Positions 27,345 to 46,708 of a stretch of 46,708 bases of DNA are shown piece by piece. The stretch's first letter is position 1; each line of letters begins with the position of its first letter. Under the pieces are notes generated by a model that worked only from the letters and a program-made list of their open reading frames with translations, did no database searches and was not told the origin of the DNA. A program made the position numbers and the translations under genes. The stretch is from an uncultured virus (IMG/VR IMGVR_UViG_2124908030_000005) (lineage: Duplodnaviria; Heunggongvirae; Uroviricota; Caudoviricetes; Thumleimavirales; Hafunaviridae), in the IMG/VR virus record IMGVR_UViG_2124908030_000005, one strand, 5' to 3'.

Positions 27345-27385
27345 ACCTCTCTCGGGAATCGAACCCGACAAGGCCAGCAAGAGGC
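27345..27385 (-). ncRNA. Mini-tRNA-like element upstream of polB
   Basis: GCCTCTT-gctggccttg-TCGGG-TTCGATT-CCCGA-GAGAGGT. Confidence 0.7.
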
Positions 27386-27404
27386 AAACAGTTAGAAGGC
27401 TATT

Positions 27405-28310
27405 CTAGTAGTCCCAAGTCGAAGGGCACTGCGGCTGGTAGTCGCACCAGTCGCAGAGGGGCTGCTCGTTGATCTCAAAGTCGCTACGAGTCACTGCTAA
27501 CTCATGGAGGTCTTCAATTACCTCTGTGATGGTGTCGCGTGTCTGCTCGTTTGGCATTGAGCGCACGACGTTGCCATCTGCTGTGGGATACATACCGATT
27601 GCACCAGCCACGTTGAAGCCCTCCTGTTCGAGCATCCAAGCGTAGAATTCTAAGTCCACATGAATCCCAGAATCTCGATACTCTTTCTTCGGGAGTTTCC
27701 CAGTCTTGTAATCCACCACAACATAGCCCTCGTTGCTCTTGATCTCCCGAACTGAACGGGCATCGAGCAGGGCGTCGTAAGGACCGAGCCACGGCAGGTC
27801 GCCCACTGGTGGGTCTTCGATGGTGAGGCTTTTCTCAAGACTGTGAGGCGTCCATGCCCCCAACGCTTTGTGCTTTGTCTTGATGTTGGCTCTCGCCGTC
27901 TCGTATCGCTGTAACTCCCAGTCGAAGAACGGGCCAATCCAATCTATGAATTCAAACCACTCTGTGGCTGGCCCCATGAGATCAGTGAGCGAGGCAGGGA
28001 ACGTCTGATTGGCCGCGACGAAGGCTTTGAGGTTGTGATGATACTCCTCGAAGGCGTCATGGATGTGGGTTCCCCGCCGCATATAGAAGTTCTCGCTGGC
28101 CCGCTCACCAGCGAGGTACTTGTAGGCGAACTTGCGCGGGCACTTCAGAAACGTCTTGATGCGGCTCTTGGAGATGTGGGGCAGGTGGTCGGAGGCTGGC
28201 TCGTCGCCATAGAAATCAACGGCAAGGTCTTTTTCGCCCCCCGTGCCAAATTGACTGCCGGTTGGGACCTCGACTTCTGCATCTACGTTGCCGCCGAATC
28301 GGTCACTCAT
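27405..28310 (-). CDS. Cas4-like PD-(D/E)XK exonuclease
   Basis: SKSRIKTFLKCPRK, GTHIH, DAL...VVDYKTG and C-terminal CDWCDYQPQC. Confidence 0.85.
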   Translation of the reverse strand: MSDRFGGNVDAEVEVPTGSQFGTGGEKDLAVDFYGDEPASDHLPHISKSRIKTFLKCPRKFAYKYLAGERASENFYMRRGTHIHDAFEEYHHNLKAFVAANQTFPASLTDLMGPATEWFEFIDWIGPFFDWELQRYETARANIKTKHKALGAWTPHSLEKSLTIEDPPVGDLPWLGPYDALLDARSVREIKSNEGYVVVDYKTGKLPKKEYRDSGIHVDLEFYAWMLEQEGFNVAGAIGMYPTADGNVVRSMPNEQTRDTITEVIEDLHELAVTRSDFEINEQPLCDWCDYQPQCPSTWDY

Positions 28311-28551
28311 GGCTGTCTCGATTCTCCATCCAACGCCGGAGGTTGCTGCGGACAGTCTGTGCTTCAAACGCCCGCGAAAGTTCCGTGGTGTCTACTTTAT
28401 CAAGGTAGCTGTCCATCAGACCAAGCCCCTCAACGTACACTTTGTCGTTGTCCTGGTCGTTGATAACGAAGTACAACTGAGCAGTTTCGGCTTCGTATTT
28501 GTCTTCTTGATTCTTCAGTTTTCGTAGAAACTCCTCAAAGTCCAACATCAT
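28303..28551 (-). CDS. Hypothetical protein
   Basis: Acidic ORF overlapping its neighbours. Confidence 0.5.
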   Translation of the reverse strand: MMLDFEEFLRKLKNQEDKYEAETAQLYFVINDQDNDKVYVEGLGLMDSYLDKVDTTELSRAFEAQTVRSNLRRWMENRDSHE

Positions 28552-28735
28552 ATTGTGCCTCCAACTCTGCAACGTGTTCAGTGATCTCAACTGCCGTCTC
28601 TAGTTCGCGGTCGTCGCCGTCGTCAGTCGTCCGAAATTCGATTACCGTGCGTTCTTGGCTGGCTGCTCGCTGTAGAATAGAGAGCAGTGTTTCTTTGTCA
28701 ATTCCAAAGCCAACTTGAGTGGGTGAGTCAGTCAT
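28535..28735 (-). CDS. Hypothetical protein
   Basis: Acidic ORF starting MTDSPT. Confidence 0.5.
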   Translation of the reverse strand: MTDSPTQVGFGIDKETLLSILQRAASQERTVIEFRTTDDGDDRELETAVEITEHVAELEAQYDVGL

Positions 28736-28757
28736 GATAAATAAAAAAGCTGCGAGC

Positions 28758-29165
28758 CTAGTCGTACCGCCCAGCCGCCGACGCATCACGGGCCATCTGT
28801 GAGTCAGCCGAACTGAGAATCAGCCCGCACTCAGGACACAGTTTCTCGCCGCCCTCATTGACGCGGCCTACTACGTCGTGGGTCTCGTCGCTGCACTCGG
28901 GGCAGACAAGTTCTTTCCAAGCAACCGCGTGGCGCTGGATTGTCTTGCTGGAGCGACCCATATCTATGCGGCACAACACCGGAACCGCCTCGTTATCCGG
29001 TGGAAAGCGGTCGCCTGTCGCACTGGTGTCATACGTTTTCTTGATGCCGGTTCCTTCATACACGCTGGATTCTCGAACGCCGGGGACCTTCCAGGCTCGG
29101 TACAGATTGTGGGTTGATTTGAGAGAGAACGATTCGGCCTTAACTCGGCTTTCTTTTGTAGACAT
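28758..29165 (-). CDS. Zn-ribbon protein (TFIIB-type ribbon at the C-terminus)
   Basis: CPEC...GEKLCPECGLIL. Confidence 0.6.
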   Translation of the reverse strand: MSTKESRVKAESFSLKSTHNLYRAWKVPGVRESSVYEGTGIKKTYDTSATGDRFPPDNEAVPVLCRIDMGRSSKTIQRHAVAWKELVCPECSDETHDVVGRVNEGGEKLCPECGLILSSADSQMARDASAAGRYD

Positions 29166-29221
29166 TAGAGTAGACGTGGCTGCGATTAGTGAGCGAGCGA
29201 GACTACGCGGCAATAATTGTA

Positions 29222-30448
29222 CTACTCGTCCAGCGTGTCCCCGAACTCAATCGGGTACATAAATGTTGTGGGTCTTTTGTCGCTGACTCCATGCACCGTG
29301 GCTGTTGGCTGAGTCCACTCTGACAGTCGCTCCTCGAATCCTCCGGGGGGCTTCGGGCTACCCGTCATGAACACGTTGCGGTTGCCCGTGATGGCCTCGA
29401 TTCTGAACGAGTGGTAGTGGCCTCTGTACGCCTGATCGAATCCGTGCTTGATCTGCCAGCCTCTCCAGCGGTTCTTCCCAGCCGACGTGCCGATATGTTC
29501 AAGCGAGTCTTCGCCGTGGCGCAGGTGGAACTTGTAGCCCTTGTTCCGCCGCTTGTAGCTCTCCTTGTCGCCGCGAACGAAGAAGTTAGTGAAGTTGGTG
29601 CTACTATTCCGAATCAGCGTGACGTTATCGAGTCCAGAGTCTCGTCGCACTGCTTGGTCCAACATCATGTAGACAATACGATCAGCGTTGGCTCCGTTGC
29701 TGTAACTGGCATCGAGCGCCCCGTGGTTGCCAACTTGGCACACGACCTGAACGCTCGGGAAGAAGTCAGCAAGACGCTGAATCTGCTCAAGGAACGTCTC
29801 TGCTGCAATCTCGATCTGAGAGTCGAGCGTTTCCTCGATGTGAGCTTGTTGATTCGCGTAAATCTGCTCTCCTGTAACGTGGTCGCCGCCGAGCAAGAGG
29901 TGGGCTGTATCGAACGTGACGCCCGCCTGCTGCTGTCTTTCGACCAACTCCATCACCTGCGAAGTCACATATTCTTCGCGGTTGACGGCAATCTCTGTAT
30001 CGTAGACTGTCTCTCCAAATTCGTTGGTGACAACATCTCCGATGTGTGTGTCCGTCCGATGAATCACAACGTCTTCGTGCTGGTCGCGCAGGCTGTGGCC
30101 GCCGTCAGCCACCGGAGGCTTGGTTCGGTCGAGCATATCAGTGAGACGCCGCTCCATGCCGTTGAGATACTTGTTGAGCCGTTCGGTCTTACCTCGCTTG
30201 TTGCGCTTTTCTTCGGAGTTTTTCGGGTTGTTGTTCGTCGGGTGAGAGGTAGTAGAATTCATCGTGAAGATACGTTTTTCGCCGGAGCGGGTTGCCTGTG
30301 AGCAGATACCGTCTTCGCTGTCTCGGAGACTCGATACGTGATCTCGCGCTGTGCTTTTCGTGATGTTCAGTTCATCCGCAATCTCGGCGTAGGTCGCGCC
30401 GTTATCAGAGAGCAATTCGTAGACTAATTGTTGACTGTTAGATTTCAT
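29222..30448 (-). CDS. HTH plus calcineurin-like metallophosphoesterase
   Basis: N-terminal ATYAEIADELNITKSTARDHV; DTHIG, GGD, GNHG, HG and GHYH motifs. Confidence 0.85.
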   Translation of the reverse strand: MKSNSQQLVYELLSDNGATYAEIADELNITKSTARDHVSSLRDSEDGICSQATRSGEKRIFTMNSTTSHPTNNNPKNSEEKRNKRGKTERLNKYLNGMERRLTDMLDRTKPPVADGGHSLRDQHEDVVIHRTDTHIGDVVTNEFGETVYDTEIAVNREEYVTSQVMELVERQQQAGVTFDTAHLLLGGDHVTGEQIYANQQAHIEETLDSQIEIAAETFLEQIQRLADFFPSVQVVCQVGNHGALDASYSNGANADRIVYMMLDQAVRRDSGLDNVTLIRNSSTNFTNFFVRGDKESYKRRNKGYKFHLRHGEDSLEHIGTSAGKNRWRGWQIKHGFDQAYRGHYHSFRIEAITGNRNVFMTGSPKPPGGFEERLSEWTQPTATVHGVSDKRPTTFMYPIEFGDTLDE

Positions 30449-30461
30449 AGTAGACGTAGAG

Positions 30462-31688
30462 TTACTGCTGGTCAATTTGCAAATCGTCGGCTCGATTGTA
30501 GATGTGACACCCTTCTCCAAGACAGAACTGCGGTGCGCTCTCCGTGATGGAGCGACACACGAACGAGCTTGGATGGTAGCGGGCTATCACATCTCGAATG
30601 AGACTGCGGGAGTAGCCCTCGTCAAAGCGAGGGATGTCAGAAAACAATTCAATCATCACGCCAATCGGGACTTCATGCTTGGCTAGTTCTTTGATTACGT
30701 TGATCTCCATTTCCCGCGACGACCCTCCGTGCCGGTACGCATCATCGCGGTCAAGCCACGCACCTATGCACGGCTTGTTTTTAATGAGCAAGTTACGAAC
30801 TTTGGAAGCAGTTATCTTGTCGTTGCTAGCGTCTCGATACTGCTCCAGCGTGTCGTCGTTGCGATAACTCGACTCTCCGGGCTTCGTGCGGATTTCGGAT
30901 TCTGATGCACTCTTAACGTGTTCGGTGAGAACATTGTGCGCCCGCTCGGACTGCGAACGAAACGCTGCATCAGGCAATGCTCGTGGCTGTTTGGTTAACT
31001 CAAGATACTTGTCTGGCGTGAGATTAGCCAACTCCTCGACGGAACTGGCAACACAGAACGGCGTGTAGTCAACGTGTTTAGCGCCCGTGTGGGGCGTGTT
31101 GGGATGCCTCGCCAGCCGACCGAGATCGTGGCTAGTTACGTCTAACCAGCGGCGAATCTCGATGCCAGCCTCATTGGCAAAGTGGTCAATGATCTCCTCT
31201 GCATATTGCTGGAGTCCGTTCTTGTACTGCTGAAGCGAACCCAACTCGCTCGACAACGGCTCGAAGTCAATGTACAGGTGAATGCCCTTGTGACCTGAAA
31301 GGGAGACACGAAAATGCTCTGTCAAGCCCGCGTCCATGATTACACCTGAAATCATGCGTGCGCGAACGAGCAACTTGGATATGTCGCGTCTCCAGTGTTC
31401 GGTCTCGCCTCCAGATTGAGGGTCATAGACTCCTTCTCCTGCCGGAATGTCGAGGTCAAAGAACAGTGTGTCAATCTTTGGTATCTCTCCCTCCTGGCTG
31501 TGGCCGTGTGGAAACGAGTACACCGACACGAATCCGGGGCTGTCGGACTGGCTTGACTTGCTAAGGTTGTCAATCAGGCTGGGTCGGGTCTGCACTGTGC
31601 GCTGCTTCGGGCCGTCACCGTGAGTTGACTTTCTTGGAAAATCTGGACACCATGACATACTGGCTTCGTAAGTGAGTGCGCGGTCCAT
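30462..31688 (-). CDS. Archaeo-eukaryotic primase, catalytic domain fused to a PriL-like Cys domain
   Basis: FDLD, SGHKGIHLY and D...LAR motifs; C-terminal PCI...C...C...C. Confidence 0.8.
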   Translation of the reverse strand: MDRALTYEASMSWCPDFPRKSTHGDGPKQRTVQTRPSLIDNLSKSSQSDSPGFVSVYSFPHGHSQEGEIPKIDTLFFDLDIPAGEGVYDPQSGGETEHWRRDISKLLVRARMISGVIMDAGLTEHFRVSLSGHKGIHLYIDFEPLSSELGSLQQYKNGLQQYAEEIIDHFANEAGIEIRRWLDVTSHDLGRLARHPNTPHTGAKHVDYTPFCVASSVEELANLTPDKYLELTKQPRALPDAAFRSQSERAHNVLTEHVKSASESEIRTKPGESSYRNDDTLEQYRDASNDKITASKVRNLLIKNKPCIGAWLDRDDAYRHGGSSREMEINVIKELAKHEVPIGVMIELFSDIPRFDEGYSRSLIRDVIARYHPSSFVCRSITESAPQFCLGEGCHIYNRADDLQIDQQ

Positions 31689-31695
31689 TGAATCA

Positions 31696-33153
31696 TCATC
31701 CGATAGTTCCTTGGAATGGCTGTTCTTCCTGCTTGTCCTGCACGTCGTCGGGGTCGTCGTCGCTCTCGAACGGGCTGGTCTCCTCGATTACTTCGCTCTC
31801 TTGCTGGGCCTGCTCGACCACATCATCCCCGAGGTCTTGTTCGGTGAGGCTGATCTGAGTGCCATCGAACGGGTCGGTGACAATCAGGCCCTCGCCCTCG
31901 CAGAAGGTGCTGATGTATTCTTCAGCAGCGCCCGGCTCTAGGGCAAAGCGAGCGTCCTTTTTTGTCTGCTCGACAATAGCCTCAAAGTCAATCGAGATGT
32001 CTTTCGTCACCTGATCTTCTGTCGCAAACGGTGACGGCTGAAACTTGACGCGAGCCGCCGCGTTGTCTTTGAAGACATAGCCCTTGTCGAGCATGGCGTT
32101 CAGGGAGCCTCGCACCTGGGGTTCAGAGAGGTTATGCCCCTGTCTACGCATCTCTGTCTGGGCCTCCGCGACAGTCATTGCGCTGGGACTGGTTCGCAGT
32201 AAGTCCAGAATCCTGAAGTCTAAGTCTTGGAGGTTGAGAGCCGAGAGAACCATTTTCTCGCCGAACACACGCCACGCCATCCAGAGGTCTTCTGGAGCGG
32301 AGAGCAGCGACACAGTGGCGTCTCTGCCCTCGTTATTTAGCTCCATCCGGTTCTCGTACTTGAACAGCGTCACGGATTTGACGAACTTGTTGAAGCGCCC
32401 GAAGTCCATGCGAGACTCGGGGAACAGATCAGGCAGCGGATTCTCCTGGTCGAAGCCAAGGTGCGTGAGGTTCCAGACTTCTCCGGGGGAAGCATCGTCC
32501 GTGTAGAGACCAACCGGGATTGACTCTGAGTACGCACGAATCTCGTCGTGACGATCTTGAGGAACCTTCTGGTCGTAGCGCCCAACCTCCATTTCTGCCT
32601 GTCGCGTCTTGATGCGAGAGGTGAGGTCAGCACTGCTATCTGTTGAGACGACCATTGCCCGATTCCGAACCTCGGGGTAGTCGTTGAGGTCCACGTTCTG
32701 ATTGTCGCTCGCTGCGAACAGAATCATAGCGTTTGGTGGCCTGATCGTCTGGCTGACCTCTGTTCGCTCGTCGCCAGAGATGTCAGTGAACGAGTGCGTG
32801 GACTCTCTGCCATCGCCGTTGTCCTTGAGCAGTTGCTCAATGTGTTCTTCAAGGCTGGTGATGTCCGGGTAACGGTGGATACGAGACGTGTTCAGTTCCT
32901 CCGCTCGCTGGTATAGCACCGTCTTTGAGGTGGAACTGGGAATCTTGGCTATCTCGTCGCCAGCCATGCAATACTCCACAGCGTCAACCACCATGTCCTT
33001 GCCCGACCGCGAGGGCGACGACATGATTACGAGACCGCCGTTGATTGTAAGGAGAAACACCGAGAGATGCGTGTCGCGCTCACCGACCAAGCCGAAGTCC
33101 CGAGACATCTGAGAGACCTCGAACAACGTCGGCGGCTCTATGTCACTTGGCAT
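31696..33153 (-). CDS. P-loop ATPase, putative replicative helicase, with C-terminal winged helix
   Basis: Walker A-like SPSRSGKD, arginine-finger-like EVRNR; adjacent to the primase. Confidence 0.65.
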   Translation of the reverse strand: MPSDIEPPTLFEVSQMSRDFGLVGERDTHLSVFLLTINGGLVIMSSPSRSGKDMVVDAVEYCMAGDEIAKIPSSTSKTVLYQRAEELNTSRIHRYPDITSLEEHIEQLLKDNGDGRESTHSFTDISGDERTEVSQTIRPPNAMILFAASDNQNVDLNDYPEVRNRAMVVSTDSSADLTSRIKTRQAEMEVGRYDQKVPQDRHDEIRAYSESIPVGLYTDDASPGEVWNLTHLGFDQENPLPDLFPESRMDFGRFNKFVKSVTLFKYENRMELNNEGRDATVSLLSAPEDLWMAWRVFGEKMVLSALNLQDLDFRILDLLRTSPSAMTVAEAQTEMRRQGHNLSEPQVRGSLNAMLDKGYVFKDNAAARVKFQPSPFATEDQVTKDISIDFEAIVEQTKKDARFALEPGAAEEYISTFCEGEGLIVTDPFDGTQISLTEQDLGDDVVEQAQQESEVIEETSPFESDDDPDDVQDKQEEQPFQGTIG

Positions 33154-33405: not shown

Positions 33406-33445
33406 ACCCCTGCTAGGAGTCGAACCTAGCGCGGCCACGGGGGGT
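33406..33445 (-). ncRNA. Mini-tRNA-like element
   Basis: ACCCCC-cgtggccgc-GCTAGG-TTCGACT-CCTAGC-AGGGGT. Confidence 0.65.
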
Positions 33446-38464: not shown

Positions 38465-38510
38465 TGGACTAGCAGGGAATCGAACCCTGCGCTAACTACC
38501 AGTTAATCTA
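38465..38510 (-). ncRNA. Mini-tRNA-like element
   Basis: TAGATTA-actggtagttagc-GCAGGG-TTCGATT-CCCTGC-TAGTCCA. Confidence 0.65.
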
Positions 38511-39088: not shown

Positions 39089-40876
39089 TTACCGCCACGG
39101 AGCAGATTCTTCATCGGACCAGTGTTGCGGCGGTGAGTCGGTGATTGCTTCAGTGAACCAGTTTGGCATGGCCGTTCGGCTCACCACGTCATGGAATTTG
39201 CTGTCCAGAACGTAGTACGACGCCGCTTCTTCTGGCTCTGGACCCCGGACTGCACGGCCCACGGACTGCTGGATGGCGATTGAAGTTGCGCTGTAGTACC
39301 AGTTCCAGTCCTTTTCCTCGTTGAGCAGATAACTCACCCGCTCGTCGCCGACCGCTCCGAACGGCACCTTGAGAAGTGCCTGCCATCGGCACAGATCGCC
39401 GTGAAGGTCAACGCCCTGCGTCATGGCTGGCGTGGCAAGAATCTGCTTGTCGCTGTCTTGCCACTCTTGTATGACCACATCAGAATCTTTCTCTTGGTCG
39501 TCCATCATCACACCATCAACCCACTGGCGCACTTTCTCAGCACGATTGTAGGAGTTGGTGTGAACGACGCCCTTCTCTCCGGGGTGCTGGTCTCGCACCT
39601 CGCGTAGTTTTTGCATGGCCTCGCCCCAGTTTTCTTCCTCACTGTCACCGGACATAGGCCCGCTCTCCGTCGCTGTGGAGATTAGCCTATGCTCCCGGTC
39701 GAAAGGCATTGACTTGGAAATGAGCGCCGTGCGACCGCCCAGACCCAGCCTCTCGCACCACTGCTGGATGTTGTCTCGATACGGGATGGTCGCCGAGGAA
39801 ATCACCCGCTTTCGACCACGGCTGAAGACCTTGCGGGCCAAGAATTTGTCCACGTAAACCGGCTTCATCTCTATCTTTTTCGTAGAGTCGCCATCCCTGT
39901 CTGTCGTCTCGCTGACGTTGACTACCCACTCTCTGCCGTCACCGATCTCCTTGAGAGTGTACTGAAACTTACGTAGATAATTCTCACAATTCCGCACTTG
40001 TTTCTGCTTGTTGGGGTTTTCCTCGTGCAGATCAGCGAAGTCCTTGGCTCGTCGTGCCACGGCAGAGAGAATGTCCTCGACCTCGTGGAATCGCTCGTAA
40101 CTCCAGTTTGCCTGTCGGCCTGCTCCGTCGAACACAGTCGGAGGCAGCGACCACGGAGACACGGAATACCCAGCGAACAGGCTCGCAGCCTGGTTCTCTA
40201 GGTCCTGCCCCTCGTCAACGATTAGCACATCTCGGTCTCGGAACCCGAGCGGCTGTCCTTCTTGGGTCTCTGGCGGCACGTTGTTATCGAGGATAAGCAT
40301 AGCGAAGGTCAATGTCGCCACGTCTGAGGACCGTGCCATCATTTTTGCATCCCAGTACGTACAGGCTGGAGTGTCCAGGCAAGATTTCTCTGGGTCTGAC
40401 TGAATGGCGCAGGAGTCACACGCACTGCCTGTTTCGCCGCACACGTAATCGGCGCGAGCCTTCAGCCCATCGACGTAGGGTTCGAGGTCGCCGTCTTCCA
40501 CTAACTGCTCACGGAGTTGCTTCTGTGGAGTCGTGTAGAACGATTGGCCTTTGGTGAGGTTCACTCTCGTAGAGAATGAGTCTGCGAGCATCTGCTGTGA
40601 GGAAGCCAGGAAAGAAGTCACGGCAGCAATCGTGACATTGAGCGGCGACTTCCCGACCCCGGTTGGCAGATCAAGAATCACGTTGTCTTTGCCGTTCACA
40701 TACAACTCCTCCAGAGCCTCGTAGAGTGCTTCGTCCTGCCCCTCTCGGTAGGCCGGGAAGGGGAAGGCAGCGTCGGCAAGGTCGTGAAGGTAGAGAGTGA
40801 AGCCCGCCTTACTGTCTGGGTAATCCGCTGGGTTCGGTGCGTCGTCGTCACTAAGCGGCGTCGTTGTTTTGCTCAT
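39089..40876 (-). CDS. DinG/XPD (Rad3)-family SF2 helicase
   Basis: YREGQ Q-motif, PTGVGKS, Fe-S-type Cys residues, VDEGQ, SAT, QGVDL, KVPF and QSVGRAVR. Confidence 0.9.
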   Translation of the reverse strand: MSKTTTPLSDDDAPNPADYPDSKAGFTLYLHDLADAAFPFPAYREGQDEALYEALEELYVNGKDNVILDLPTGVGKSPLNVTIAAVTSFLASSQQMLADSFSTRVNLTKGQSFYTTPQKQLREQLVEDGDLEPYVDGLKARADYVCGETGSACDSCAIQSDPEKSCLDTPACTYWDAKMMARSSDVATLTFAMLILDNNVPPETQEGQPLGFRDRDVLIVDEGQDLENQAASLFAGYSVSPWSLPPTVFDGAGRQANWSYERFHEVEDILSAVARRAKDFADLHEENPNKQKQVRNCENYLRKFQYTLKEIGDGREWVVNVSETTDRDGDSTKKIEMKPVYVDKFLARKVFSRGRKRVISSATIPYRDNIQQWCERLGLGGRTALISKSMPFDREHRLISTATESGPMSGDSEEENWGEAMQKLREVRDQHPGEKGVVHTNSYNRAEKVRQWVDGVMMDDQEKDSDVVIQEWQDSDKQILATPAMTQGVDLHGDLCRWQALLKVPFGAVGDERVSYLLNEEKDWNWYYSATSIAIQQSVGRAVRGPEPEEAASYYVLDSKFHDVVSRTAMPNWFTEAITDSPPQHWSDEESAPWR

Positions 40877-40894
40877 TAGTAGAAAGGACCGCAG

Positions 40895-40935
40895 GAGGGA
40901 AGCAGGAATCGAACCCGCTCTATGCCAATTCCCCG
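40895..40935 (-). ncRNA. Mini-tRNA-like element
   Basis: cGGGGAA-ttggcataga-GCGGG-TTCGATT-CCTGC-TTCCCTc. Confidence 0.7.
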
Positions 40936-40939
40936 AGAG

Positions 40940-41350: not shown

Positions 41351-41394
41351 TAGCCACTCAGGAATCGAACCTGAGATTAACTACCAGTTAGCCA
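41351..41394 (-). ncRNA. Mini-tRNA-like element
   Basis: TGGCTA-actggtagttaat-CTCAGG-TTCGATT-CCTGAG-TGGCTA. Confidence 0.65.
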
Positions 41395-41401
41395 GAAACC
41401 G

Positions 41402-41848: not shown

Positions 41849-42414
41849 AAGAGGTCGGATGCGGAGTTGTAGTCGAATGCCTGTGCGAGTTTGTCTTGGC
41901 GCTGTTGAAGTGTCTCACAGCGACCGTCAACCATGTTCTCGGTGGGATTCTTGACCACTTGCTTGATAAAGATGTCTTGCACGAGATCGTCGGCTTTGAA
42001 CCATCTCTGAACTGTGTTCCAGTTGTAGATGAGGTCCCACGCATAGCCAGCCATCGTGTCCCAGAAGGTGGGTGGGTGGCGTGGCTGGTTGGGCTGGGTG
42101 CCAATCTCGATGTGGACTGTCTCGTGGAGCATAATCATCAGCAACGGCTCCATGTACGGGTCAATGATGCCGTGGCCTCTGGCCCACTTCATGTTGACGC
42201 GAAGGCTTGCACCAACTGCTGTGGGGCCACATGACGCTGCGAAGTTGCGGTCGAAGGATTCGTAGTCGAGTTGCTTCATGGCAAGCGGATACCTGCCGAG
42301 GTTCGGATGCTCTGGCTCACAGAGATTTGCCACCTTGAGAAAGAGCTTTGCTACGTCGTCAATGTCTAGTTTGCCTCTACGTGGAAGTCGTGGATTAGTT
42401 GGGTGCATACTCAT
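41845..42414 (-). CDS. SprT/WLM-like zinc metallopeptidase domain protein
   Basis: MLHETVH...HPPTFW. Confidence 0.6.
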   Translation of the reverse strand: MSMHPTNPRLPRRGKLDIDDVAKLFLKVANLCEPEHPNLGRYPLAMKQLDYESFDRNFAASCGPTAVGASLRVNMKWARGHGIIDPYMEPLLMIMLHETVHIEIGTQPNQPRHPPTFWDTMAGYAWDLIYNWNTVQRWFKADDLVQDIFIKQVVKNPTENMVDGRCETLQQRQDKLAQAFDYNSASDLL

Positions 42415-42426
42415 ACAGAGATTAAA

Positions 42427-42801
42427 TCAGGGGTACTCGAAGTCTGTTTCGAGGCCGTCGCCGCCGTTGAAGGCGTTGATCTCACGCAACTGTTCTTCTT
42501 GCCAGCGGCCACACTCGACAGCCTGCCGTGGGTCGTGTACTGCCGTCCAGCCGGTGATAGTAACTGGAACCTCGTCGGTTTTGTTGTAACCACACAGAAT
42601 GTAGACTTTCACACCGTGGTAATCGTTGCACCACTCGATGTCAGCACTGCCCGACGCGGTGCTGATGTCACCGTGGCGAATCGTTTGATACGCCAACTGC
42701 ATCGTCAGGTGCCGCTGATCGTCTTGGATAACGTCAGATGAAAAGTGGTTAGAAATATCATACTCCGAAGGGTCAGATGGGAAATACTGAAATAGATTCA
42801 T
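42427..42801 (-). CDS. Hypothetical protein
   Basis: 124 aa ORF; ISNHF...TIRHG...VTITGW is reminiscent of DUF4258-like proteins (weak). Confidence 0.5.
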   Translation of the reverse strand: MNLFQYFPSDPSEYDISNHFSSDVIQDDQRHLTMQLAYQTIRHGDISTASGSADIEWCNDYHGVKVYILCGYNKTDEVPVTITGWTAVHDPRQAVECGRWQEEQLREINAFNGGDGLETDFEYP

Positions 42802-42836
42802 GTGTCTATTCTATAGTCTGTGTGTTTAGTTGTTTG

Positions 42837-43385
42837 CTATAGCGCACCGAGTCCATGTTCTTCTGCCGTCTTGATAACGTCGAGCAGCGTGCTGTCATAC
42901 ACTTCATCGAAGTCATTTTGCTGATCGAACATCCGACCGCCGCCAAGACACTCGACCACCTCAATGTCACTGGACTGCATGACACCCTCGGTGGCTGCTC
43001 TCTCACGAACCGTTGCGCCGTACTTGTGACAGTACGATTCATCAACAACGAGCCGGTGGCCTTCGCGGTTGATCTGGCCCGAAATCCAGTCACTCCACGA
43101 CTGCGCTCGGTCTTGTTCGTTGTAAATGTGAGCAAGACGCGACCACTCTTTGTCTTGCAACTGCTCCATGCGCCGCTCGATCTCGTCTTCATGAACCGGA
43201 ACCATCTCTGTCCCGACTGCACCGTGCAAGTTGTCGGTGGCGAACACGTAGTCGAGGAACAAGTAACTGCGATTGTTTCGTGCTACGAGAGCATCGAAGT
43301 TGTACTGGATTCGGCTCCCGTCGCGGGTCATTTCCGGCGTTGTTTCTGTTTCAAATTCGTCTGGATGGGTGTAGATTACACTCAT
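42837..43385 (-). CDS. Hypothetical protein
   Basis: Acidic ORF; start reassigned to MSVIYT at 43385. Confidence 0.6.
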   Translation of the reverse strand: MSVIYTHPDEFETETTPEMTRDGSRIQYNFDALVARNNRSYLFLDYVFATDNLHGAVGTEMVPVHEDEIERRMEQLQDKEWSRLAHIYNEQDRAQSWSDWISGQINREGHRLVVDESYCHKYGATVRERAATEGVMQSSDIEVVECLGGGRMFDQQNDFDEVYDSTLLDVIKTAEEHGLGAL

Positions 43386-43415
43386 AAGTAAACTCAGCAG
43401 TAGGATGCTAGCCAC

Positions 43416-43456
43416 AGTGAAAGGCGGAATCGAACCGCCTCTATGCCAATTTCACT
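43416..43456 (-). ncRNA. Mini-tRNA-like element (perfect 7+5 bp stems)
   Basis: AGTGAAA-ttggcataga-GGCGG-TTCGATT-CCGCC-TTTCACT. Confidence 0.8.
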
Positions 43457-43462
43457 AAGGAG

Positions 43463-43648
43463 TTACTGGCAGCCAGCGCAGAGGTCTCGTTTACCTTCCT
43501 CAGTGTGATATACGTGCCACCCGTTCCTCTTAGAATAGGCTCGCGCTTCTTTTACCGTGTCGAATTTGCTGGGAACTTCGACTGAGCAAATACAGAATTT
43601 GCCTTGCGAGCCGTCACAAACTAGCGTGATAGTGTTTTTTGCTGTCAT
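43463..43648 (-). CDS. Small Cys-rich protein
   Basis: LVCDG...C...GW...DLCAGC. Confidence 0.55.
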   Translation of the reverse strand: MTAKNTITLVCDGSQGKFCICSVEVPSKFDTVKEARAYSKRNGWHVYHTEEGKRDLCAGCQ

Positions 43649-43785
43649 TTTTCGCTCACTATAACCGGAGCGCCGTAAGCCGCGAGTGCCCGTTCTTGGG
43701 CCTGAATATTATCTCTCGCAGTGATACTATCAATTGCTGTTTTATGTCCTACTTCGTCTAATTCGTAAACAATGAATTCACTCAT
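43645..43785 (-). CDS. Small hypothetical protein (46 aa)
   Basis: MSEFIVYELDE..., overlapping both neighbours. Confidence 0.5.
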   Translation of the reverse strand: MSEFIVYELDEVGHKTAIDSITARDNIQAQERALAAYGAPVIVSEK

Positions 43786-43930
43786 TACTAAGTTGATCTC
43801 GCAAAATATCTCTTGTATGATAGATGGAGTCCGATGGTTGACACATGGACCTTTTCTCGACTCTATCAATCGTTGCTTCTACTTCTAACAATGCAATTCG
43901 TGCTTCGTTGTCGGTTAGAGTTACAGTCAT
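43778..43930 (-). CDS. Small hypothetical protein (50 aa)
   Basis: MTVTLTDNEARIALLEVE...LSNE*, starting 29 nt after a mini-tRNA element. Confidence 0.5.
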   Translation of the reverse strand: MTVTLTDNEARIALLEVEATIDRVEKRSMCQPSDSIYHTRDILRDQLSNE

Positions 43931-43959
43931 AGTAAACAGAGCAGTAGGATGCCAGCCAC

Positions 43960-44000
43960 AGTGAAAGGAGGAATCGAACCCCCTCTATGCCAATCTCACT
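43960..44000 (-). ncRNA. Mini-tRNA-like element
   Basis: AGTGAGA-ttggcataga-GGGGG-TTCGATT-CCTCC-TTTCACT, with G-U substitutions relative to the 43416 copy. Confidence 0.8.
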
Positions 44001-44302
44001 TATTTCCTAACGGGGTTCTTCTGTGGTGTGCGCTTCGGGTCTGGGTTCACCTCACTTGGCATGGCAAAGACGTATCTCTCGCTTTCTGTGCAGTGAGCCA
44101 CTTGGAAACGATTTCGCCGCCGCTGGACTTTCGCCCGCAGCGTGACCTCCGGCAGTTGTCGGCCTTCGCCGTTGACGAAGTACCAACCGTTGTTGTAATC
44201 TGGCCGGTGGTTTTCCGGGTCCATGTTATTTTTCTTCATCCATTCAACTAATGCTGCGAGCCTGTACTTCCGCTTTGTCTGAGATGTATCTTGAAGTGTC
44301 AT
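44000..44302 (-). CDS. Basic hypothetical protein
   Basis: MTLQDT..., flanked by two mini-tRNA elements. Confidence 0.55.
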   Translation of the reverse strand: MTLQDTSQTKRKYRLAALVEWMKKNNMDPENHRPDYNNGWYFVNGEGRQLPEVTLRAKVQRRRNRFQVAHCTESERYVFAMPSEVNPDPKRTPQKNPVRK

Positions 44303-44326
44303 TGTAAGAAGTAACCGTAACCGCAA

Positions 44327-44371
44327 ACAGTGAACGGGAATTGAACCCGAAACTAACTACCTTGTCACTGT
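44327..44371 (-). ncRNA. Mini-tRNA-like element
   Basis: ACAGTGA-caaggtagttagtt-tCGGG-TTCAATT-CCCGt-TCACTGT. Confidence 0.65.
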
Positions 44372-44396
44372 ATAATAGGGGACCTAGAGACTAAAG
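44366..44396 (-). promoter_or_regulatory. Conserved viral promoter-like motif
   Basis: CTTTAGTCT-CTAGGTCCCC-TATTATACAGTG, abutting the element. Confidence 0.6.
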
Positions 44397-44404
44397 GCTG
44401 TTGT

Positions 44405-46099
44405 TTACGTCTTATCGCATATGATCGTGACCGTACTGAGCAACTCATCGAGAGTGTGGCTGCTGATCTCACCCATCAGGTGGGAGAGATTGTCAATGCC
44501 ACCCTGTTTCTCGACGGTCTTCCAGTAACGGTTCGCGTAACTTCGACCGTGACTAGGTTCTTCTTTGCTACTGAAGCGGTGTGCTATCTCGTGTTGCATT
44601 GTTTGCCAGAGTTCTGGAACCCACTGCACCCACTGGTTGGACTCCGTTGCTGAATCTGTGATTGTGATACTGTCAACGCCGTTCGTCCACGCATGAGCCA
44701 CGTCAGACTCACCGAATGTCACTTCGTAGTAGTCTGGGACTTCTTCATGCTGATGGGCAATGAATCGAGCCACACCGAGTTTCTTACGTTGCATCGGCTT
44801 GAGATCGTATTCATCAACTTGCTCAAACTGAGTGTGGATGCCTTCATCTGAGGCTCTGTCTTGAGCATCGAATGTGCCGGGCTTGTCGGGGTTGTCGTCT
44901 TTCGCAAACTTTGCAACAGCGCCATCATCTTCGTTGAGAACAACTAACCCGAAGGCTTCTTCGAGCCGGTCGGCAGCCTTGTTGCCCTTGTTAGCGTAGC
45001 CAATCTCTGCCTGCTCCATGACATGATTGTAGGAGACGTAACTCTCAGAAGCCGTCTCGAACACCTCTTTGTCGCCGTGCTGCTGGGTCTCGCCTTTGTT
45101 GAGCATTCGGTCAGCGTAAAACTCACGAGCATCGTCGTTGAGATGCCCAGCATGGTCGAACACTTCTGCTCGAATATCAACCAATACCTCGTTGAGTTGC
45201 GTCCAGATCGGACAGCCACTCTTGATCTCGTTGCGAGCGAAGTTGAGGCGAAGATTTCTCTCGGTAACAATCGTGCCTTGGAGGCCCCGAGACTGCACAT
45301 CTTTCACCATGATGCCGCCGGAGTGAACGGTGAGGTCTCCGTTGCCATGCCGAACGCCAATGTGAACGTCGCCGGTCATTTCTGACTGGTACGTTGTTGA
45401 GTGCGTTGGCTCACCGTTCGCAGTCACATCTCGCGGGTCGCCATTGCTGATACAGACACCATTGAGGCAAACCTCTGTGTCTCGCACTGATTCGAGGAAA
45501 CGGAAGCGGTCTTTGAGGTTGCCCTCATAGTCGTCCCACCTCCAAGACGTATCGCTGGGAACCTCGTCGGGGTAATGCTTGACAAGGATGCCCATGCCGT
45601 CGTAGAATCCTGCCGTTCCAAACTTCTCTAGGATGAGATGTGCCCACTCTGGGTCTTGTTCTGCAACTATGTCAGCGGCGTCACTCAGCGGCACAGTCCG
45701 GGCTTCGAGGCCCCAGTTGGTAATGTCAAAGAGCAGGGCAGTTGTGCCGGAAGCGAACATCGTCTTGCCTTTGGCTATAATCTGACCTTTGCCGATACCG
45801 AATTCGCCAATCGAAGCATGATCGTCGGCGTCTTTCGAGGACTCACCCATCGTTGTGAGGAGATCGAGTCCTTGCTGTTGGGTCAATTCTACACCGGAGC
45901 CATTGTCCTCGACGAAGGAGAAGTCCGTGTCGTAGTCCAGCGAGACTTTTGTTGCGCCGGAGTCAATGCCGTTCTGGATGGCTTCTCGCCAGCCTTTCTC
46001 TAGGTTGTCAGCCTGATCGACAATCACGGAGCGAACCAGACTGTCGTTTGCGTCAATGTTGTGAGTCTCTGCGTTCATCTGCGTTGAGTTGTCACTCAT
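44405..46099 (-). CDS. GHKL (Hsp90/MORC-like) ATPase with a C-terminal HExxH motif
   Basis: REAIQNGIDS, VEDNGSG and IGEFGIGK boxes; MQHEIAH...HG near the C-terminus. Confidence 0.8.
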   Translation of the reverse strand: MSDNSTQMNAETHNIDANDSLVRSVIVDQADNLEKGWREAIQNGIDSGATKVSLDYDTDFSFVEDNGSGVELTQQQGLDLLTTMGESSKDADDHASIGEFGIGKGQIIAKGKTMFASGTTALLFDITNWGLEARTVPLSDAADIVAEQDPEWAHLILEKFGTAGFYDGMGILVKHYPDEVPSDTSWRWDDYEGNLKDRFRFLESVRDTEVCLNGVCISNGDPRDVTANGEPTHSTTYQSEMTGDVHIGVRHGNGDLTVHSGGIMVKDVQSRGLQGTIVTERNLRLNFARNEIKSGCPIWTQLNEVLVDIRAEVFDHAGHLNDDAREFYADRMLNKGETQQHGDKEVFETASESYVSYNHVMEQAEIGYANKGNKAADRLEEAFGLVVLNEDDGAVAKFAKDDNPDKPGTFDAQDRASDEGIHTQFEQVDEYDLKPMQRKKLGVARFIAHQHEEVPDYYEVTFGESDVAHAWTNGVDSITITDSATESNQWVQWVPELWQTMQHEIAHRFSSKEEPSHGRSYANRYWKTVEKQGGIDNLSHLMGEISSHTLDELLSTVTIICDKT

Positions 46100-46130
46100 G
46101 GAAAGAAACACGGCAGTAAGATGCCAGCAT

Positions 46131-46171
46131 GGAGGGAGACGGAATCGAACCGCCTCTATGCCAATCCCTCT
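46131..46171 (-). ncRNA. Mini-tRNA-like element
   Basis: aGAGGGA-ttggcataga-GGCGG-TTCGATT-CCGTC-TCCCTCc. Confidence 0.75.
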
Positions 46172-46646
46172 AGTATTTCTGCGGCTCCCAATCGTCGTGC
46201 TTATTTACTTCATCTCTCATTTTTTCATACAGAGTATCATGAATATCATCTTCAGTAAGATTAGTCACACTAGCCAGTGAAAGTATGTCTACGTTTTGCT
46301 CTAACCATTCGTAAGTATTTTCTATCAATGTTGTTTTGTGGTCTATCGAACGAGGGTCCAAATCATGTGTTCTTCGTCTTAGAAATTCTTTGTCTTGTTC
46401 CACTGAATACTCAGCCATTGTTTCAGCAGGAAATTCAGTGTAAACTATACAGTCTACGATAGCAGTCATTTGATCTGCAATAATTTCGCTTGATTCTTCG
46501 TCGTGGTAGCGAATATGACCATGTGATTTTCGAGAACTAGAGAGTGTCTGGTGCGGATGTTTGGTGTCGTTGTATGTTGCGAACACGGTTTTTCTGTCAA
46601 TTTTTTCGTCTCGGTTGTAGAACAGCCGCTCTGTTTGTTCGTGCAT
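46170..46646 (-). CDS. Hypothetical protein
   Basis: 158 aa acidic ORF flanked by two mini-tRNA elements. Confidence 0.6.
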   Translation of the reverse strand: MHEQTERLFYNRDEKIDRKTVFATYNDTKHPHQTLSSSRKSHGHIRYHDEESSEIIADQMTAIVDCIVYTEFPAETMAEYSVEQDKEFLRRRTHDLDPRSIDHKTTLIENTYEWLEQNVDILSLASVTNLTEDDIHDTLYEKMRDEVNKHDDWEPQKY

Positions 46647-46677
46647 TGTAGTAAACTCAGCAGTAAGGTGCTAGCAT

Positions 46678-46708
46678 AAAGGGAGACGGAATCGAACCGC
46701 CTCTATGC
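46678..46708 (-). ncRNA. Mini-tRNA-like element, 5' end cut by window edge
   Basis: ...gcataga-GGCGG-TTCGATT-CCGTC-TCCCTTT. Confidence 0.7.

What the first reader, a model, noticed from the sequence alone, without database searches (positions are those of the whole stretch)
27345..46708. At least 11 anticodon-less mini-tRNA elements punctuate the minus-strand operons
Seen: elements start at 27345, 33406, 34817, 38465, 40895, 41351, 43416, 43960, 44327, 46131 and 46678. All are intergenic and on the coding strand. Each folds as a 6-7 bp acceptor-like stem, a 9-14 nt linker containing GG (TTGGCATAGA, ACTGGTAGTTA, GCTGGCCTTG), a 5-6 bp T-stem and a 7-nt TTCRA(T/C)T loop, giving about 12 bp stacked. 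Stem sequences differ widely between copies (AGTGAAA/TTTCACT, GCCTCTT/GAGAGGT, TGGACC/GGTTCA) yet pairing is kept. Most substitutions are G-U only on the - strand, which points to selection at the RNA level. Several elements begin at the upstream stop codon, and most end 10-31 nt before the next ATG. Established: acceptor stem plus T-arm is the minimal substrate of RNase P and tRNase Z, the D-loop GG pairs with the T-loop, and tRNA-like elements direct processing in plant mitochondria (t-elements), mascRNA and haloarchaeal 5S rRNA. Inference: this may be a viral tRNA-punctuation system that uses host tRNA-processing enzymes to cut or stabilise polycistronic mRNA, and it may release small tRNA-mimic RNAs as decoys.
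Basis: partly seen in the sequence, partly recalled or inferred. Interest (0 to 1): 0.92.

Follow-up and report, generated by a model that had tools for sequence, protein, structure and literature searches.

The report
Mini-tRNA punctuation in halovirus early operons
A salt-lake archaeal virus carries eleven tiny tRNA-shaped signals without an anticodon arm between its early genes; relatives including the lab virus HF2 share them, and they most likely let the host's tRNA-trimming enzymes cut long viral messages into pieces.

Summary
The window holds 10 complete and 1 truncated 40-46 nt element. All lie on the minus (coding) strand and all are intergenic. Each has an acceptor-like stem, a 9-14 nt linker containing GG, a T-stem and a TTCRAYT loop. 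ARAGORN and Rfam call none of them a tRNA. A structure descriptor finds exactly these 10 and nothing else, against 0.3 expected.

The window is a distant relative of Hafunaviridae (HF1/HF2-type haloviruses; PolB 38% identical). The same elements occur in related contigs and in HF2 and HRTV-5, where they are unannotated. A covariance model finds 59 hits, all 59 on the coding strand. Pairing is 92% against 55% in shuffles, with compensatory changes at 11 of 12 pairs, and slots are conserved upstream of homologous genes.

Two positional facts point to RNA cleavage. At one slot with conserved flanks, three viruses carry a full tRNA-Arg and five carry a mini-tRNA. Directly upstream of the helicase gene, the HF group carries a hammerhead ribozyme where the window carries a mini-tRNA.

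Best reading (about 0.55): virus-borne t-elements cut by host RNase P and tRNase Z. Cleavage itself is untested, because no RNA data exist. The decoy idea has no support. My literature searches found no description of these elements.

The parts
27345..27385 (-). mini-tRNA element 1 (7 bp acceptor, 10 nt GG linker, 5 bp T-stem, TTCGATT loop). It lies 19 nt after the stop of the PD-(D/E)XK nuclease gene and 19 nt before the PolB ATG.
   Evidence: R2 36.8 bits; MFE = proposed fold
33406..33445 (-). mini-tRNA element 2 (5 bp acceptor with a 1-nt bulge, 6 bp T-stem, TTCGACT loop); 10 nt before the next ATG.
   Evidence: 25.9 bits
34817..34859 (-). mini-tRNA element 3 (6+6 bp), the weakest copy. It lies 69 nt before the ATG at 34747 in a 370-nt spacer that also holds two promoter-like motifs.
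   Evidence: Missed by R2 at E<=5. L029 15715 holds an element in the orthologous slot, upstream of a 47%-identical gene.
38465..38510 (-). mini-tRNA element 4 (the linker can form a small GGU-loop hairpin); 21 nt before an ATG.
   Evidence: (31.4 bits)
40895..40935 (-). mini-tRNA element 5, 4 nt after an upstream stop codon and 18 nt before the Rad3-type helicase ATG (40876). HF-group viruses have a hammerhead ribozyme in this slot.
   Evidence: (43.7 bits)
41351..41394 (-). mini-tRNA element 6 (6+6 bp), 7 nt after a stop codon and 24 nt before an ATG.
   Evidence: 30.0 bits
43416..43456 (-). mini-tRNA element 7, 6 nt after a stop codon and 30 nt before an ATG.
   Evidence: (48.7 bits). The orthologous slot is L029 6924.
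43960..44000 (-). mini-tRNA element 8. Its first base is the last base of the upstream TAA stop codon; 29 nt before an ATG.
   Evidence: 46.4 bits
44327..44371 (-). mini-tRNA element 9 (7 bp acceptor, 4 bp T-stem, TTCAATT loop), with a promoter-like motif directly upstream.
   Evidence: (17.4 bits)
46131..46171 (-). mini-tRNA element 10. It overlaps the upstream TAG stop codon by 2 nt; 31 nt before an ATG.
   Evidence: 48.3 bits
46678..46708 (-). mini-tRNA element 11, with its 5' part cut off by the window end; 31 nt before the ATG at 46646.
   Evidence: 28.1 bits, model positions 11-41, cut at the 5' end
43388..43415 (-). trailer hairpin after element 7 (a 4-5 bp stem around a UCCUAC loop), followed by UUUACUUAUG. 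Hairpins of the same type follow elements 8, 10 and 11 (about 43932-43959, 46108-46128 and 46655-46675).
   Evidence: MFE; z -1.22, 0.2, -1.81, -0.91. The same hairpin follows most L029 elements.
40888..40893 (-). trailer motif TGCGGT at exactly +2..+7 after the element. The same motif sits at 27338, 34810, 41344 and 44320, i.e. after 5 of the 10 complete elements.
   Evidence: 20 matches in the window, 5 at this offset. The same motif follows both the true tRNA-Arg and the mini-tRNA of HF-group viruses.
44377..44384 (-). GGTCCCCT followed by an AT-rich stretch, a candidate archaeal promoter. Two further exact copies on the minus strand lie at 34901-34908 and 35020-35027.
   Evidence: Inference only.
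39089..40876 (-). Rad3-type helicase gene, used to fetch related loci.
24776..27325 (-). family B DNA polymerase gene, 38% identical to the Hafunaviridae PolB.

Best explanation
The elements are virus-encoded t-elements: minimal tRNA mimics that keep only what tRNA end-processing enzymes read. That is a 12-bp acceptor/T-arm stack, a canonical T-loop, and a D-loop-like GG that could form the elbow. They are transcribed as part of the long early/replication transcripts. Host RNase P is proposed to cut at the 5' edge, often right at the stop codon of the upstream gene. Host tRNase Z would then cut after the discriminator base. This would release the downstream mRNA with a defined, short 5' leader of 10-31 nt that lacks a Shine-Dalgarno sequence and begins with either UGCGGU or a small hairpin. 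Shown: the fold, its conservation and covariation, its strand and slot conservation, and its positional equivalence with a true tRNA and with a self-cleaving ribozyme. Inferred: the cleavage itself, the enzymes, the order of cuts, and the benefit (uncoupling, stabilising or activating individual cistrons).
For: (1) tRNA-specific anatomy without an anticodon arm.
(2) Selection on RNA pairing. In alignment A9 (53 distinct sequences), 92.2% of cells are paired against 55.5% in shuffles. The covariation score is 0.854 against 0.186 (0 of 500 shuffles reach it) and 0.12-0.20 when the partners are slid. Eleven of 12 pairs show changes on both sides (A6 gives the same picture).
(3) All 59 R2 hits at E<=0.01 in 407 kb lie on the coding strand. 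Whole-record scans place them only in the early/replication arm.
(4) Slots are conserved upstream of homologous genes that are only 20-47% identical, with unrelated stem sequences.
(5) At one slot with conserved flanks, 3 loci carry a 77-nt tRNA-Arg(TCT) and 5 loci carry a 47-nt mini-tRNA. Both are followed by the same UGCGGUG trailer. That trailer follows 5 of the 10 complete window elements at the same offset.
(6) Directly upstream of the helicase gene, 6 of 7 HF-group loci scanned have a hammerhead type II ribozyme, while the window has element 40895-40935.
(7) HF2 true tRNAs sit between a promoter repeat and the ORFs of an 18-kb transcript (PMC8707807 section 3.4 and supplementary Table S4). 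tRNA processing therefore already cuts these mRNAs.
[quoted passage not shown] Archaeal RNase Z cuts pre-tRNAs lacking a D, anticodon or T arm but needs the acceptor stem and a mature 5' end (PMC7479834 passages).
(9) In the HF2 RT-PCR map, the 5' limit of transcript F2 falls between nt 2894 and 3073, which brackets the first HF2 element at 2905-2945.
Against: No RNA ends were seen for any element.

The HF2 paper reports a 5' end, 'T-4384', at nt 10 of the HF2 element 4375-4414. It treats the sequence upstream as a promoter and cloned fragment 4343-4385. Transcripts that start there could not form the acceptor stem.

Transcript F2 spans that same element, so cleavage there is at best incomplete.

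The fold is not unusually stable. z ranges from -0.15 to -2.3, and 4 of 10 MFE structures differ from the proposed fold.

The elements lack a D-stem. Whether haloarchaeal RNase P accepts such a substrate is unknown.

From memory, not read here: Holzle et al. 2012 (Biochimie) found that other predicted tRNA-like elements of H. volcanii were not cleaved in vitro.

The CM-derived alignments lean towards the modelled structure.
Confidence: 0.55

Rival explanations
1. The elements are structured RNA that acts without being cut. They could be 5'-UTR modules that recruit ribosomes or a tRNA-binding factor to Shine-Dalgarno-less internal start codons. Alternatively they could be stabilisers at the 3' end of the upstream mRNA or the 5' end of the downstream mRNA.
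For: Spacing to the ATG is constant: 26-33 nt in most HF-group and L029 copies and 10-31 nt in 10 of 11 window copies. Most window leaders have no SD-like sequence, and a conserved UUACU-AUG context is present. A hairpin lies between element and ATG in many copies; 22 of 42 trailers have z<-1. HF2 transcript F2 reads through an element.
Against: This does not explain why a true tRNA or a self-cleaving ribozyme occupies equivalent slots. It also does not explain why exactly the RNase P/Z recognition features are what is conserved. No known archaeal initiation mechanism uses a tRNA mimic.
Confidence: 0.2
2. The elements are DNA-level regulatory repeats. Either they form part of early promoters or they are binding sites for a viral regulator, like the HF2 class I intergenic repeats. 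On this view the tRNA-like look is incidental or inherited.
For: In HF2 a promoter-like motif and a mapped 5' end (T-4384) overlap an element, and the authors cloned fragments 2880-2937 and 4343-4385 as putative promoters. Window element 44327 directly follows a promoter-like GGTCCCCT plus AT-rich motif. The window lacks HF2-type repeat motifs: CTTTAAGT has 0 matches, and the alpha motif has no match within 3 mismatches near any element. Something else must therefore organise its early transcription.
Against: Compensatory changes in two stems, an excess of G-U over A-C on the sense strand, and a tRNA T-loop consensus are not expected of a protein-binding or TATA/BRE site. Most window elements follow a stop codon within 0-7 nt, with no AT-rich box upstream. 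All hits are orientation-locked to the mRNA strand.
Confidence: 0.1
3. The released ~41-nt RNAs are themselves the functional product, for example CCA-tailed tRNA mimics that titrate or misdirect a host tRNA-binding enzyme or defence. Their position between genes would then be only a convenient way to express them.
For: There are many copies per genome: at least 11 in the window and 14 in the 31.7-kb record G001. The T-loop and GG elbow are conserved beyond what a minimal RNase Z substrate needs (passages). Plant t-elements do receive non-encoded C/A tails (PMC1920247 passages).
Against: Acceptor-stem sequences are not conserved between copies or between viruses, so there is no common identity. 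The anticodon arm, which known tRNA-targeting defences attack, is absent. No RNA data exist.
Confidence: 0.1
4. The elements are decaying remnants of viral tRNA genes or recombination scars with no present function.
For: The viral lineage carries true tRNA genes in the same arm. Contigs of co-occurring strains break at element borders, although this may be an assembly effect of the shared 11-mer.
Against: Structure is maintained by compensatory change across genomes whose proteins are 20-50% identical. Slots, orientation and spacing are also conserved.
Confidence: 0.03

Closest known systems
t-elements of plant mitochondria (Forner et al. 2007, PMC1920247; abstract and passages read)
   Same: They are non-decoding tRNA-like folds with the GGTTCRANYCC T-arm motif, embedded in mRNA precursors. 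Their edges coincide with mRNA 5'/3' ends, and they are thought to direct RNase P and RNase Z.
   Different: Those are organellar, few per genome, mostly irregular cloverleaf remnants, and supported by mapped RNA ends. The elements here belong to a dsDNA archaeal virus, form a uniform two-helix design with a 9-16 nt linker in place of the D and anticodon arms, number up to 14 in 16 kb, and have no RNA data.
Haloferax volcanii t-element upstream of 5S rRNA, and its use to release an icrRNA (PMC4326828 and PMC3296008 passages; Holzle 2008/2012 not held, cited from those papers and from memory)
   Same: It comes from the same host clade and enzymes: a tRNA-like structure cut by tRNase Z (and RNase P) to create the end of a neighbouring RNA.
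   Different: That is a single cellular element in an rRNA operon. I could not compare its sequence or structure because the primary paper was not held. The elements here are viral, multi-copy and lie between protein-coding genes.
tRNA punctuation of animal mitochondrial transcripts (textbook knowledge, recalled)
   Same: tRNA-shaped units between cistrons act as cut marks for RNase P and RNase Z.
   Different: There the marks are the functional tRNAs themselves. Here most marks have lost the anticodon arm and cannot decode.
Hammerhead type II ribozyme of HF1/HF2-group viruses (annotated in AF222060.2; Rfam RF02276 hits)
   Same: It is an intergenic, coding-strand RNA-cleavage module in the same operons. 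It occupies the helicase-upstream slot where the window has a mini-tRNA.
   Different: The hammerhead is self-cleaving and has an unrelated fold. None is found in the window.
HF2 class I/II intergenic repeats (Russ, Pfeiffer and Dyall-Smith 2021, PMC8707807; abstract, sections 3.1-3.7 passages, section 3.4 and supplement tables read)
   Same: They are repeated intergenic elements of the early/middle arm of the same virus group, conserved in position and orientation.
   Different: The IRs are AT-rich BRE/TATA/INR promoters 56-58 or 29 bp long, with no tRNA-like fold. Their motifs are absent from the window.
mascRNA/MALAT1 and gammaherpesvirus tRNA-like precursors (recalled, not checked here)
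   Same: A tRNA-like fold within a longer transcript recruits RNase P and/or RNase Z to define RNA ends.
   Different: Those are eukaryotic nuclear systems with cloverleaf-like folds, present as single copies or as pol III units.

Membership tests
t-elements (tRNA-like processing signals) | tRNA-like fold with an acceptor stem stacked on a T-arm that carries the GGTTCRANYCC-type loop | tested here: met
   Nine of the 10 complete copies have GGTTCRAYTCC; e34817 has AGTTCGATTCT.
t-elements (tRNA-like processing signals) | Not a decoding tRNA (no anticodon arm, not called by tRNA finders) | tested here: met
   ARAGORN finds 0 genes. Rfam tRNA gives no hit at E<=10. A 9-14 nt linker replaces the D and anticodon arms.
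t-elements (tRNA-like processing signals) | Lies inside a longer precursor transcript, sense strand, next to the end of a mature RNA | tested here: inconclusive
   All copies are intergenic and on the coding strand, 0-33 nt from the upstream stop codon in 8 of 10 and 10-31 nt from the next ATG in 10 of 11. Transcripts and RNA ends were not observable.
t-elements (tRNA-like processing signals) | Cleaved by RNase P and/or tRNase Z at its borders | not testable with these tools
   This needs in vitro cleavage or RNA-end mapping. Only positional analogies are available.
canonical tRNA gene | Cloverleaf with D-arm and anticodon arm | tested here: not met
   By contrast, true tRNAs in related loci are called by both tools.
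HF2 class I/II intergenic promoter repeats | AT-rich TATA (beta motif CTTTAAGT core) and the alpha/gamma motifs | tested here: not met
   CTTTAAGT has 0 matches in the window. The alpha motif has only 2 three-mismatch hits, at 6556 and 6738 on the + strand, far from any element.
Hammerhead ribozyme | Match to the Rfam hammerhead covariance models | tested here: not met
   No hammerhead hit in the window at E<=10.

The most novel reading that the evidence does not exclude
A whole lineage of haloarchaeal tailed viruses runs its early gene expression on interchangeable 'RNA cut-here cassettes': full tRNAs, stripped-down 41-nt mini-tRNAs and hammerhead ribozymes, swapped between equivalent intergenic slots. 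In the window's sub-lineage the mini-tRNA has become the standard punctuation mark, with at least 11-14 per genome. It converts SD-less internal cistrons into short-leader mRNAs that the haloarchaeal ribosome can initiate on. The excised, possibly CCA-tailed mini-tRNAs accumulate as a second product that engages host tRNA-binding machinery.
Probability: 0.2. Interest if true: 0.9.

Novelty: new variant of a known kind. Interest (0 to 1): 0.8.

Why it matters
If these elements are cut by RNase P and tRNase Z, this would be, as far as my searches show, the first tRNA-punctuation system in a virus of archaea. It would also be an unusually clean natural 'minimal substrate' set: dozens of independent sequences that keep only the acceptor/T-arm stack, the T-loop and a GG.

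It would explain how long early transcripts of HF1/HF2-type viruses yield the shorter species seen on Northern blots. It would also address how internal genes without Shine-Dalgarno sequences get usable 5' ends in haloarchaea, an open question in archaeal translation.

Because the elements are present in culturable viruses (HF2, HRTV-5) whose hosts are genetically tractable, the hypothesis can be tested directly. The elements are also ready-made compact processing cassettes for multigene expression in haloarchaea.

Tried and rejected
- RNA evidence: no RNA holder was listed for window 37000-46708. Only 4 DNA runs from one hypersaline-lake study were found.
- Laying those contigs gave no informative variation inside elements. 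Contig breaks at element borders (38471/38505, 46128/46172) may be assembly effects of the shared 11-mer.
- No whole genome is held for the window.
- A megablast of 27000-46708 against phage records gave no match.
- The single-protein PolB scan of IMG/VR found nothing.
- The pattern TTGGCATAGA-N4-6-TTCGATTC in IMG/VR gave one locus (L002) whose match has no T-stem, so it is a chance hit.
- MAFFT cannot align the elements because of the variable linker. I therefore seeded a covariance model from five same-length copies (A3, R1) and iterated to R2.
- R1 hits at 28214 and on the + strand (E 0.35-6.7) disappeared with R2, so they are chance.
- Descriptor hits in L041 and some in L022, L023 and L025 are parts of true tRNAs and are not mini-tRNAs.
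- I tested whether the structured ~100 nt upstream of the helicase in the closest relatives (L003, L004, L007, L010) is a hammerhead. There was no Rfam hit at E<=1.
- Earlier scan notes held nothing relevant.
- The attP / tRNA 3'-fragment reading is rejected, because each element carries its own complementary 5' acceptor strand.
- The intrinsic-terminator reading is rejected, because no T-run follows the elements.
- Holzle 2008 (PMC2327364) is not held. Tang et al. 2002/2004 on HF2 could not be consulted.

Full report
**What the window is.** The 46.7-kb window (GC 0.50) is part of a tailed archaeal virus. The + strand up to about 24.7 kb carries structural genes, including Baseplate_J, and a large integrase-like gene. 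The minus strand from 46708 down to 24776 carries replication and early genes: a Rad3-type helicase, a PD-(D/E)XK nuclease, a metallophosphatase and family B DNA polymerase. PolB is 38-39% identical to that of Hafunaviridae such as HRTV-5 and the HCTV group. No phage record matches at the DNA level. The helicase protein sits on a 72,464-base contig in the protein collection. Its nearest relatives are 60% identical and come from metagenomes. DNA runs holding the window come from one hypersaline-lake study.

GTTCRAYTC occurs 11 times on the minus strand and once on the + strand, against 2.8 expected. Each minus-strand hit is the loop of a T-arm flanked by an acceptor-like stem. I wrote a descriptor independent of any alignment: a TTCRANN loop, 12 stacked positions with at least 11 pairs, and a 7-17 nt linker. 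It returns exactly the 10 complete elements, all on the minus strand, and nothing else in 93 kb of two-strand sequence. Shuffled windows give 0.295 hits on average. The eleventh copy is truncated by the window end. ARAGORN and Rfam see no tRNA. All copies are intergenic. Ten of 11 end 10-31 nt before the next ATG; e34817 ends 69 nt before the true start at 34747. Two overlap the upstream stop codon and three follow it by 4-7 nt. With the borders, the base before the element is T in 8 of 10. The element is always followed by N-T-G (invariant columns). Thermodynamics alone would not single the elements out: the MFE equals the model in 6 of 10, with z from -0.15 to -2.3.

**The elements are a family trait, not a quirk of this contig.** I used a helicase alignment (A2) to fetch 17 metagenome loci and 35 IMG/VR loci. 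The same descriptor hits the hafunavirus-like loci. There are 61 hits that have G53-C61 and a GG linker, against 1.8 per shuffle replicate, and 60 of the 61 are on the helicase strand. That count includes duplicate records and a few parts of true tRNAs.

A covariance model seeded on five window copies (A3/R1) and rebuilt from 36 hits (A8/R2) gives these results:
- In 26 sources (407 kb), 59 hits at E<=0.01, all 59 on the coding strand. Two of these lie inside a true tRNA-Gly.
- In whole-record scans, 14 hits in a 31.7-kb record (G001), then 7, 6 and 2 in three others, and two strong hits in HF2 at 2905-2945 and 4375-4414. All lie in the early arm and on one strand.

Neither HF2 element is annotated in AF222060.2. 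HRTV-5 likewise shows only its tRNAs.

**Selection acts on an RNA fold.** On alignment A9 (53 distinct rows), 92.2% of cells pair against 55.5% in shuffles. The covariation score is 0.854, against 0.186 in shuffles (0 of 500 reach it) and 0.12-0.20 when partners are slid by 1-3 columns. Eleven of 12 pairs show double changes, and only the two pairs next to the loop are nearly invariant G-C (A6 gives the same). These alignments are fitted to the model, which favours pairing. The alignment-free descriptor and the orthologous comparisons agree with them, however. For example, the HF-group element upstream of the HF2_035 homologue reads GCTCCG/CGGAGC, GCCCCG/CGGGGC or GCTCTG/CAGAGC in different viruses. 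Elements also sit upstream of homologous genes in distant genomes with unrelated stems:
- window 34817, L029 15715 and L033 18901 (downstream proteins 47% and 20-25% identical);
- window 43416 and L029 6924 (36%);
- L026 8563, L033 5711, L020 3939 and L023 4127.

Sense-strand G-U cells outnumber A-C cells, which would be G-U on the other strand. The count is 29 to 5 without the terminal pair and 11 to 4 in the window.

**Why cleavage is the favoured function.** There are four arguments.

1. At one slot with conserved flanks, HF2, HRTV-5 and L025 carry a full tRNA-Arg(TCT). L030, L024, L005, L021 and L022 instead carry a 47-nt mini-tRNA with a different acceptor stem and T-loop. Both are followed by the same N-UGCGGUG trailer. 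The published note of a 'partial tRNA-Arg with a 28-nt deletion' in Serpecor1 and HRTV-8 (PMC7230728 passage) probably refers to this. A true tRNA must be excised by RNase P and tRNase Z, so the slot tolerates, and perhaps requires, excision. The same TGCGGT sits at +2 to +7 after 5 of the 10 complete window elements, although the hexamer is not enriched in the window overall (20 matches against 21.8 expected).
2. Directly upstream of the helicase gene, 6 of the 7 HF-group loci I scanned carry a type II hammerhead (L021, L022, L024, L027, L028, L030; not L025, which has two elsewhere). The window has mini-tRNA 40895-40935 there. A self-cleaving RNA and a tRNA mimic in the same slot point to a shared role as a cut site.
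3. In HF2, true tRNAs lie between promoter repeats and the ORFs they drive: IR2-tRNA-Arg-prohibitin, and IR3-tRNA-Asn-tRNA-Tyr followed by an 18-kb transcript whose most 5' RT-PCR primer lies inside tRNA-Asn. tRNA processing therefore already shapes these mRNAs.
4. The biochemistry is plausible. Haloferax t-elements placed beside a crRNA are removed by RNase P and tRNase Z in vivo (PMC4326828). tRNase Z makes the 5S rRNA 5' end at a tRNA-like structure (PMC3296008). Methanogen RNase Z enzymes cut pre-tRNAs that lack a D, anticodon or T arm, but they need the acceptor stem and a mature 5' end (PMC7479834). That last requirement predicts RNase P first and tRNase Z second.

**What follows the element.** There are two trailer types. 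Many copies are followed within 1-6 nt by a small hairpin and then the start codon. This includes most of L029, the HF group, and window elements 43416, 43960, 46131 and 46678. Twenty-two of 42 trailers have z<-1, with a mean z of -1.04. The other window copies have UGCGGU and no hairpin. If tRNase Z cuts after the discriminator, the hairpin would sit at the very 5' end of the downstream mRNA, where it could protect against 5'-3' decay. This is inference. The role of UGCGGU is unexplained.

**Evidence that complicates the picture.** The HF2 study maps a 5' end, 'T-4384', which is nt 10 of the element at 4375-4414. It regards the upstream CTAAAGACTTAGAA as part of a promoter. The supplement shows that fragments 4343-4385 and 2880-2937 were amplified with cloning tags. 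A transcript that starts at 4384 lacks the 5' acceptor strand. Either the fold forms only in read-through RNA from upstream (F2 does read through), or the 5' end is not a primary start. I cannot tell which. The F1/F2 boundary in their RT-PCR map (2894-3073) brackets the first HF2 element, which fits either a promoter or a processing site. In the window, by contrast, most elements follow a stop codon directly, with no AT-rich box upstream. HF2-type repeat motifs are absent. Only three promoter-like GGTCCCCT plus AT-rich motifs are seen on the minus strand. Here the elements do look internal to polycistronic RNA.

**Novelty.** I ran seven full-text searches:
- tRNA-like / halovirus / intergenic;
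- tRNA-like / archaeal virus / tRNase Z / haloarchaea;
- t-element / tRNA-like / polycistronic / virus / RNase P;
- hammerhead / Haloferacalesvirus;
- Hafunaviridae / tRNA-like;
- anticodon arm / tRNA-like / phage genome / intergenic / T-loop;
- tRNA-like elements / Haloferax / 5S / tRNase Z.

None found a description of these elements. The HF1-group papers mention only the attP tRNA-Thr fragment, an aberrant tRNA-Pro call near terL, the partial tRNA-Arg and the hammerhead, and they say these conserved non-coding features need study. Subscription papers (Tang et al. 2002, 2004; Holzle 2008, 2012) were not available, so an earlier mention cannot be excluded. The concept itself is known: t-elements, tRNA punctuation and mascRNA. 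What is new is the host-virus system, the uniform minimal design, the copy number, and the apparent interchange with tRNAs and ribozymes. I therefore class it as a new variant of a known kind.

**Verdict.** The RNA-level structural element is very likely real. Processing by RNase P and tRNase Z is the best mechanism at about 0.55. The decoy role is unsupported.

Noticed in passing
L027 (HF2) 18080-18190 versus L030/L024/L005/L021/L022 about 18225-18628 (alignment A7): At one slot with conserved flanks, three HF-group viruses have a full tRNA-Arg(TCT) and five have a 47-nt mini-tRNA with an unrelated acceptor stem. This is a replacement rather than a simple internal deletion. A TGCGGTG motif occurs both before and after the insert.
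   Followed up: partly
L025 8159-8226 and 12302-12367; L022 7821-7888: Some HF-group viruses carry additional type II hammerhead ribozymes at other intergenic positions of the early arm, all on the coding strand, besides the one upstream of the helicase.
   Followed up: no
L003 about 940-1045, L007 about 2040-2142, L010 about 5360-5464, L004 1-84: The closest relatives of the window (helicase 60% identical) have a conserved, hairpin-rich region of about 100 nt upstream of the helicase gene in place of the mini-tRNA. It has no Rfam match at E<=1. One hairpin loop reads AGTGGCGA, like the HF-group mini-tRNA linker, and the region ends in the same TTTACTATG start context.
   Followed up: partly
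window 34901-34908, 35020-35027, 44377-44384 (minus strand); 35975-35982 (+ strand): GGTCCCCT occurs exactly four times, each followed by an AT-rich stretch (for example CTAGGTCCCCTTTACG). These are candidate archaeal promoters of the early region. Two lie in the 370-nt spacer that also holds element 34817.
   Followed up: no
window, leaders of the genes after each element (e.g. 43386-43395, 43931-43939, 38444-38452): Start codons are preceded by a pyrimidine-rich (T)TTACT context and, apart from GAGGT before the ATG at 33395, by no Shine-Dalgarno-like sequence. The same context precedes the helicase ATG in L003 and L007.
   Followed up: no
all mini-tRNA hits: The T-loops read TTCGATT, TTCGACT, TTCGAGT, TTCGACC or TTCAATT, and never TTCGAAT. 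PMC7230728 (passage) notes that TTCGAA, a methylation target motif, is avoided in HF1-group genomes, which may constrain the loop sequence.
   Followed up: no
window 46128/46172 and 38471/38505 (loose ends): Contigs from the same lake study diverge from the window exactly at the borders of elements 46131 and 38465. One carries a different T-arm sequence at the 46131 slot. This could be strain-level cassette exchange or an assembly break at the shared 11-mer.
   Followed up: no
window 22470-24548 (+ strand): A 692-aa protein has Phage_int_SAM_1 and Phage_integrase domains in its first 280 residues. It is unusually long for a tyrosine integrase, and no tRNA-type attP was found in the window.
   Followed up: no
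window 35000-38450: This stretch has ambiguous gene calls (overlapping ORFs on both strands) and no mini-tRNA. It contains a DUF6378 gene (37213-37533, minus strand).
   Followed up: no
L029 6876-6969: ARAGORN calls a 94-nt 'tRNA-Met' that overlaps mini-tRNA 6924-6968. Rfam does not call a tRNA there, so it is probably a false call built on the mini-tRNA.
   Followed up: partly
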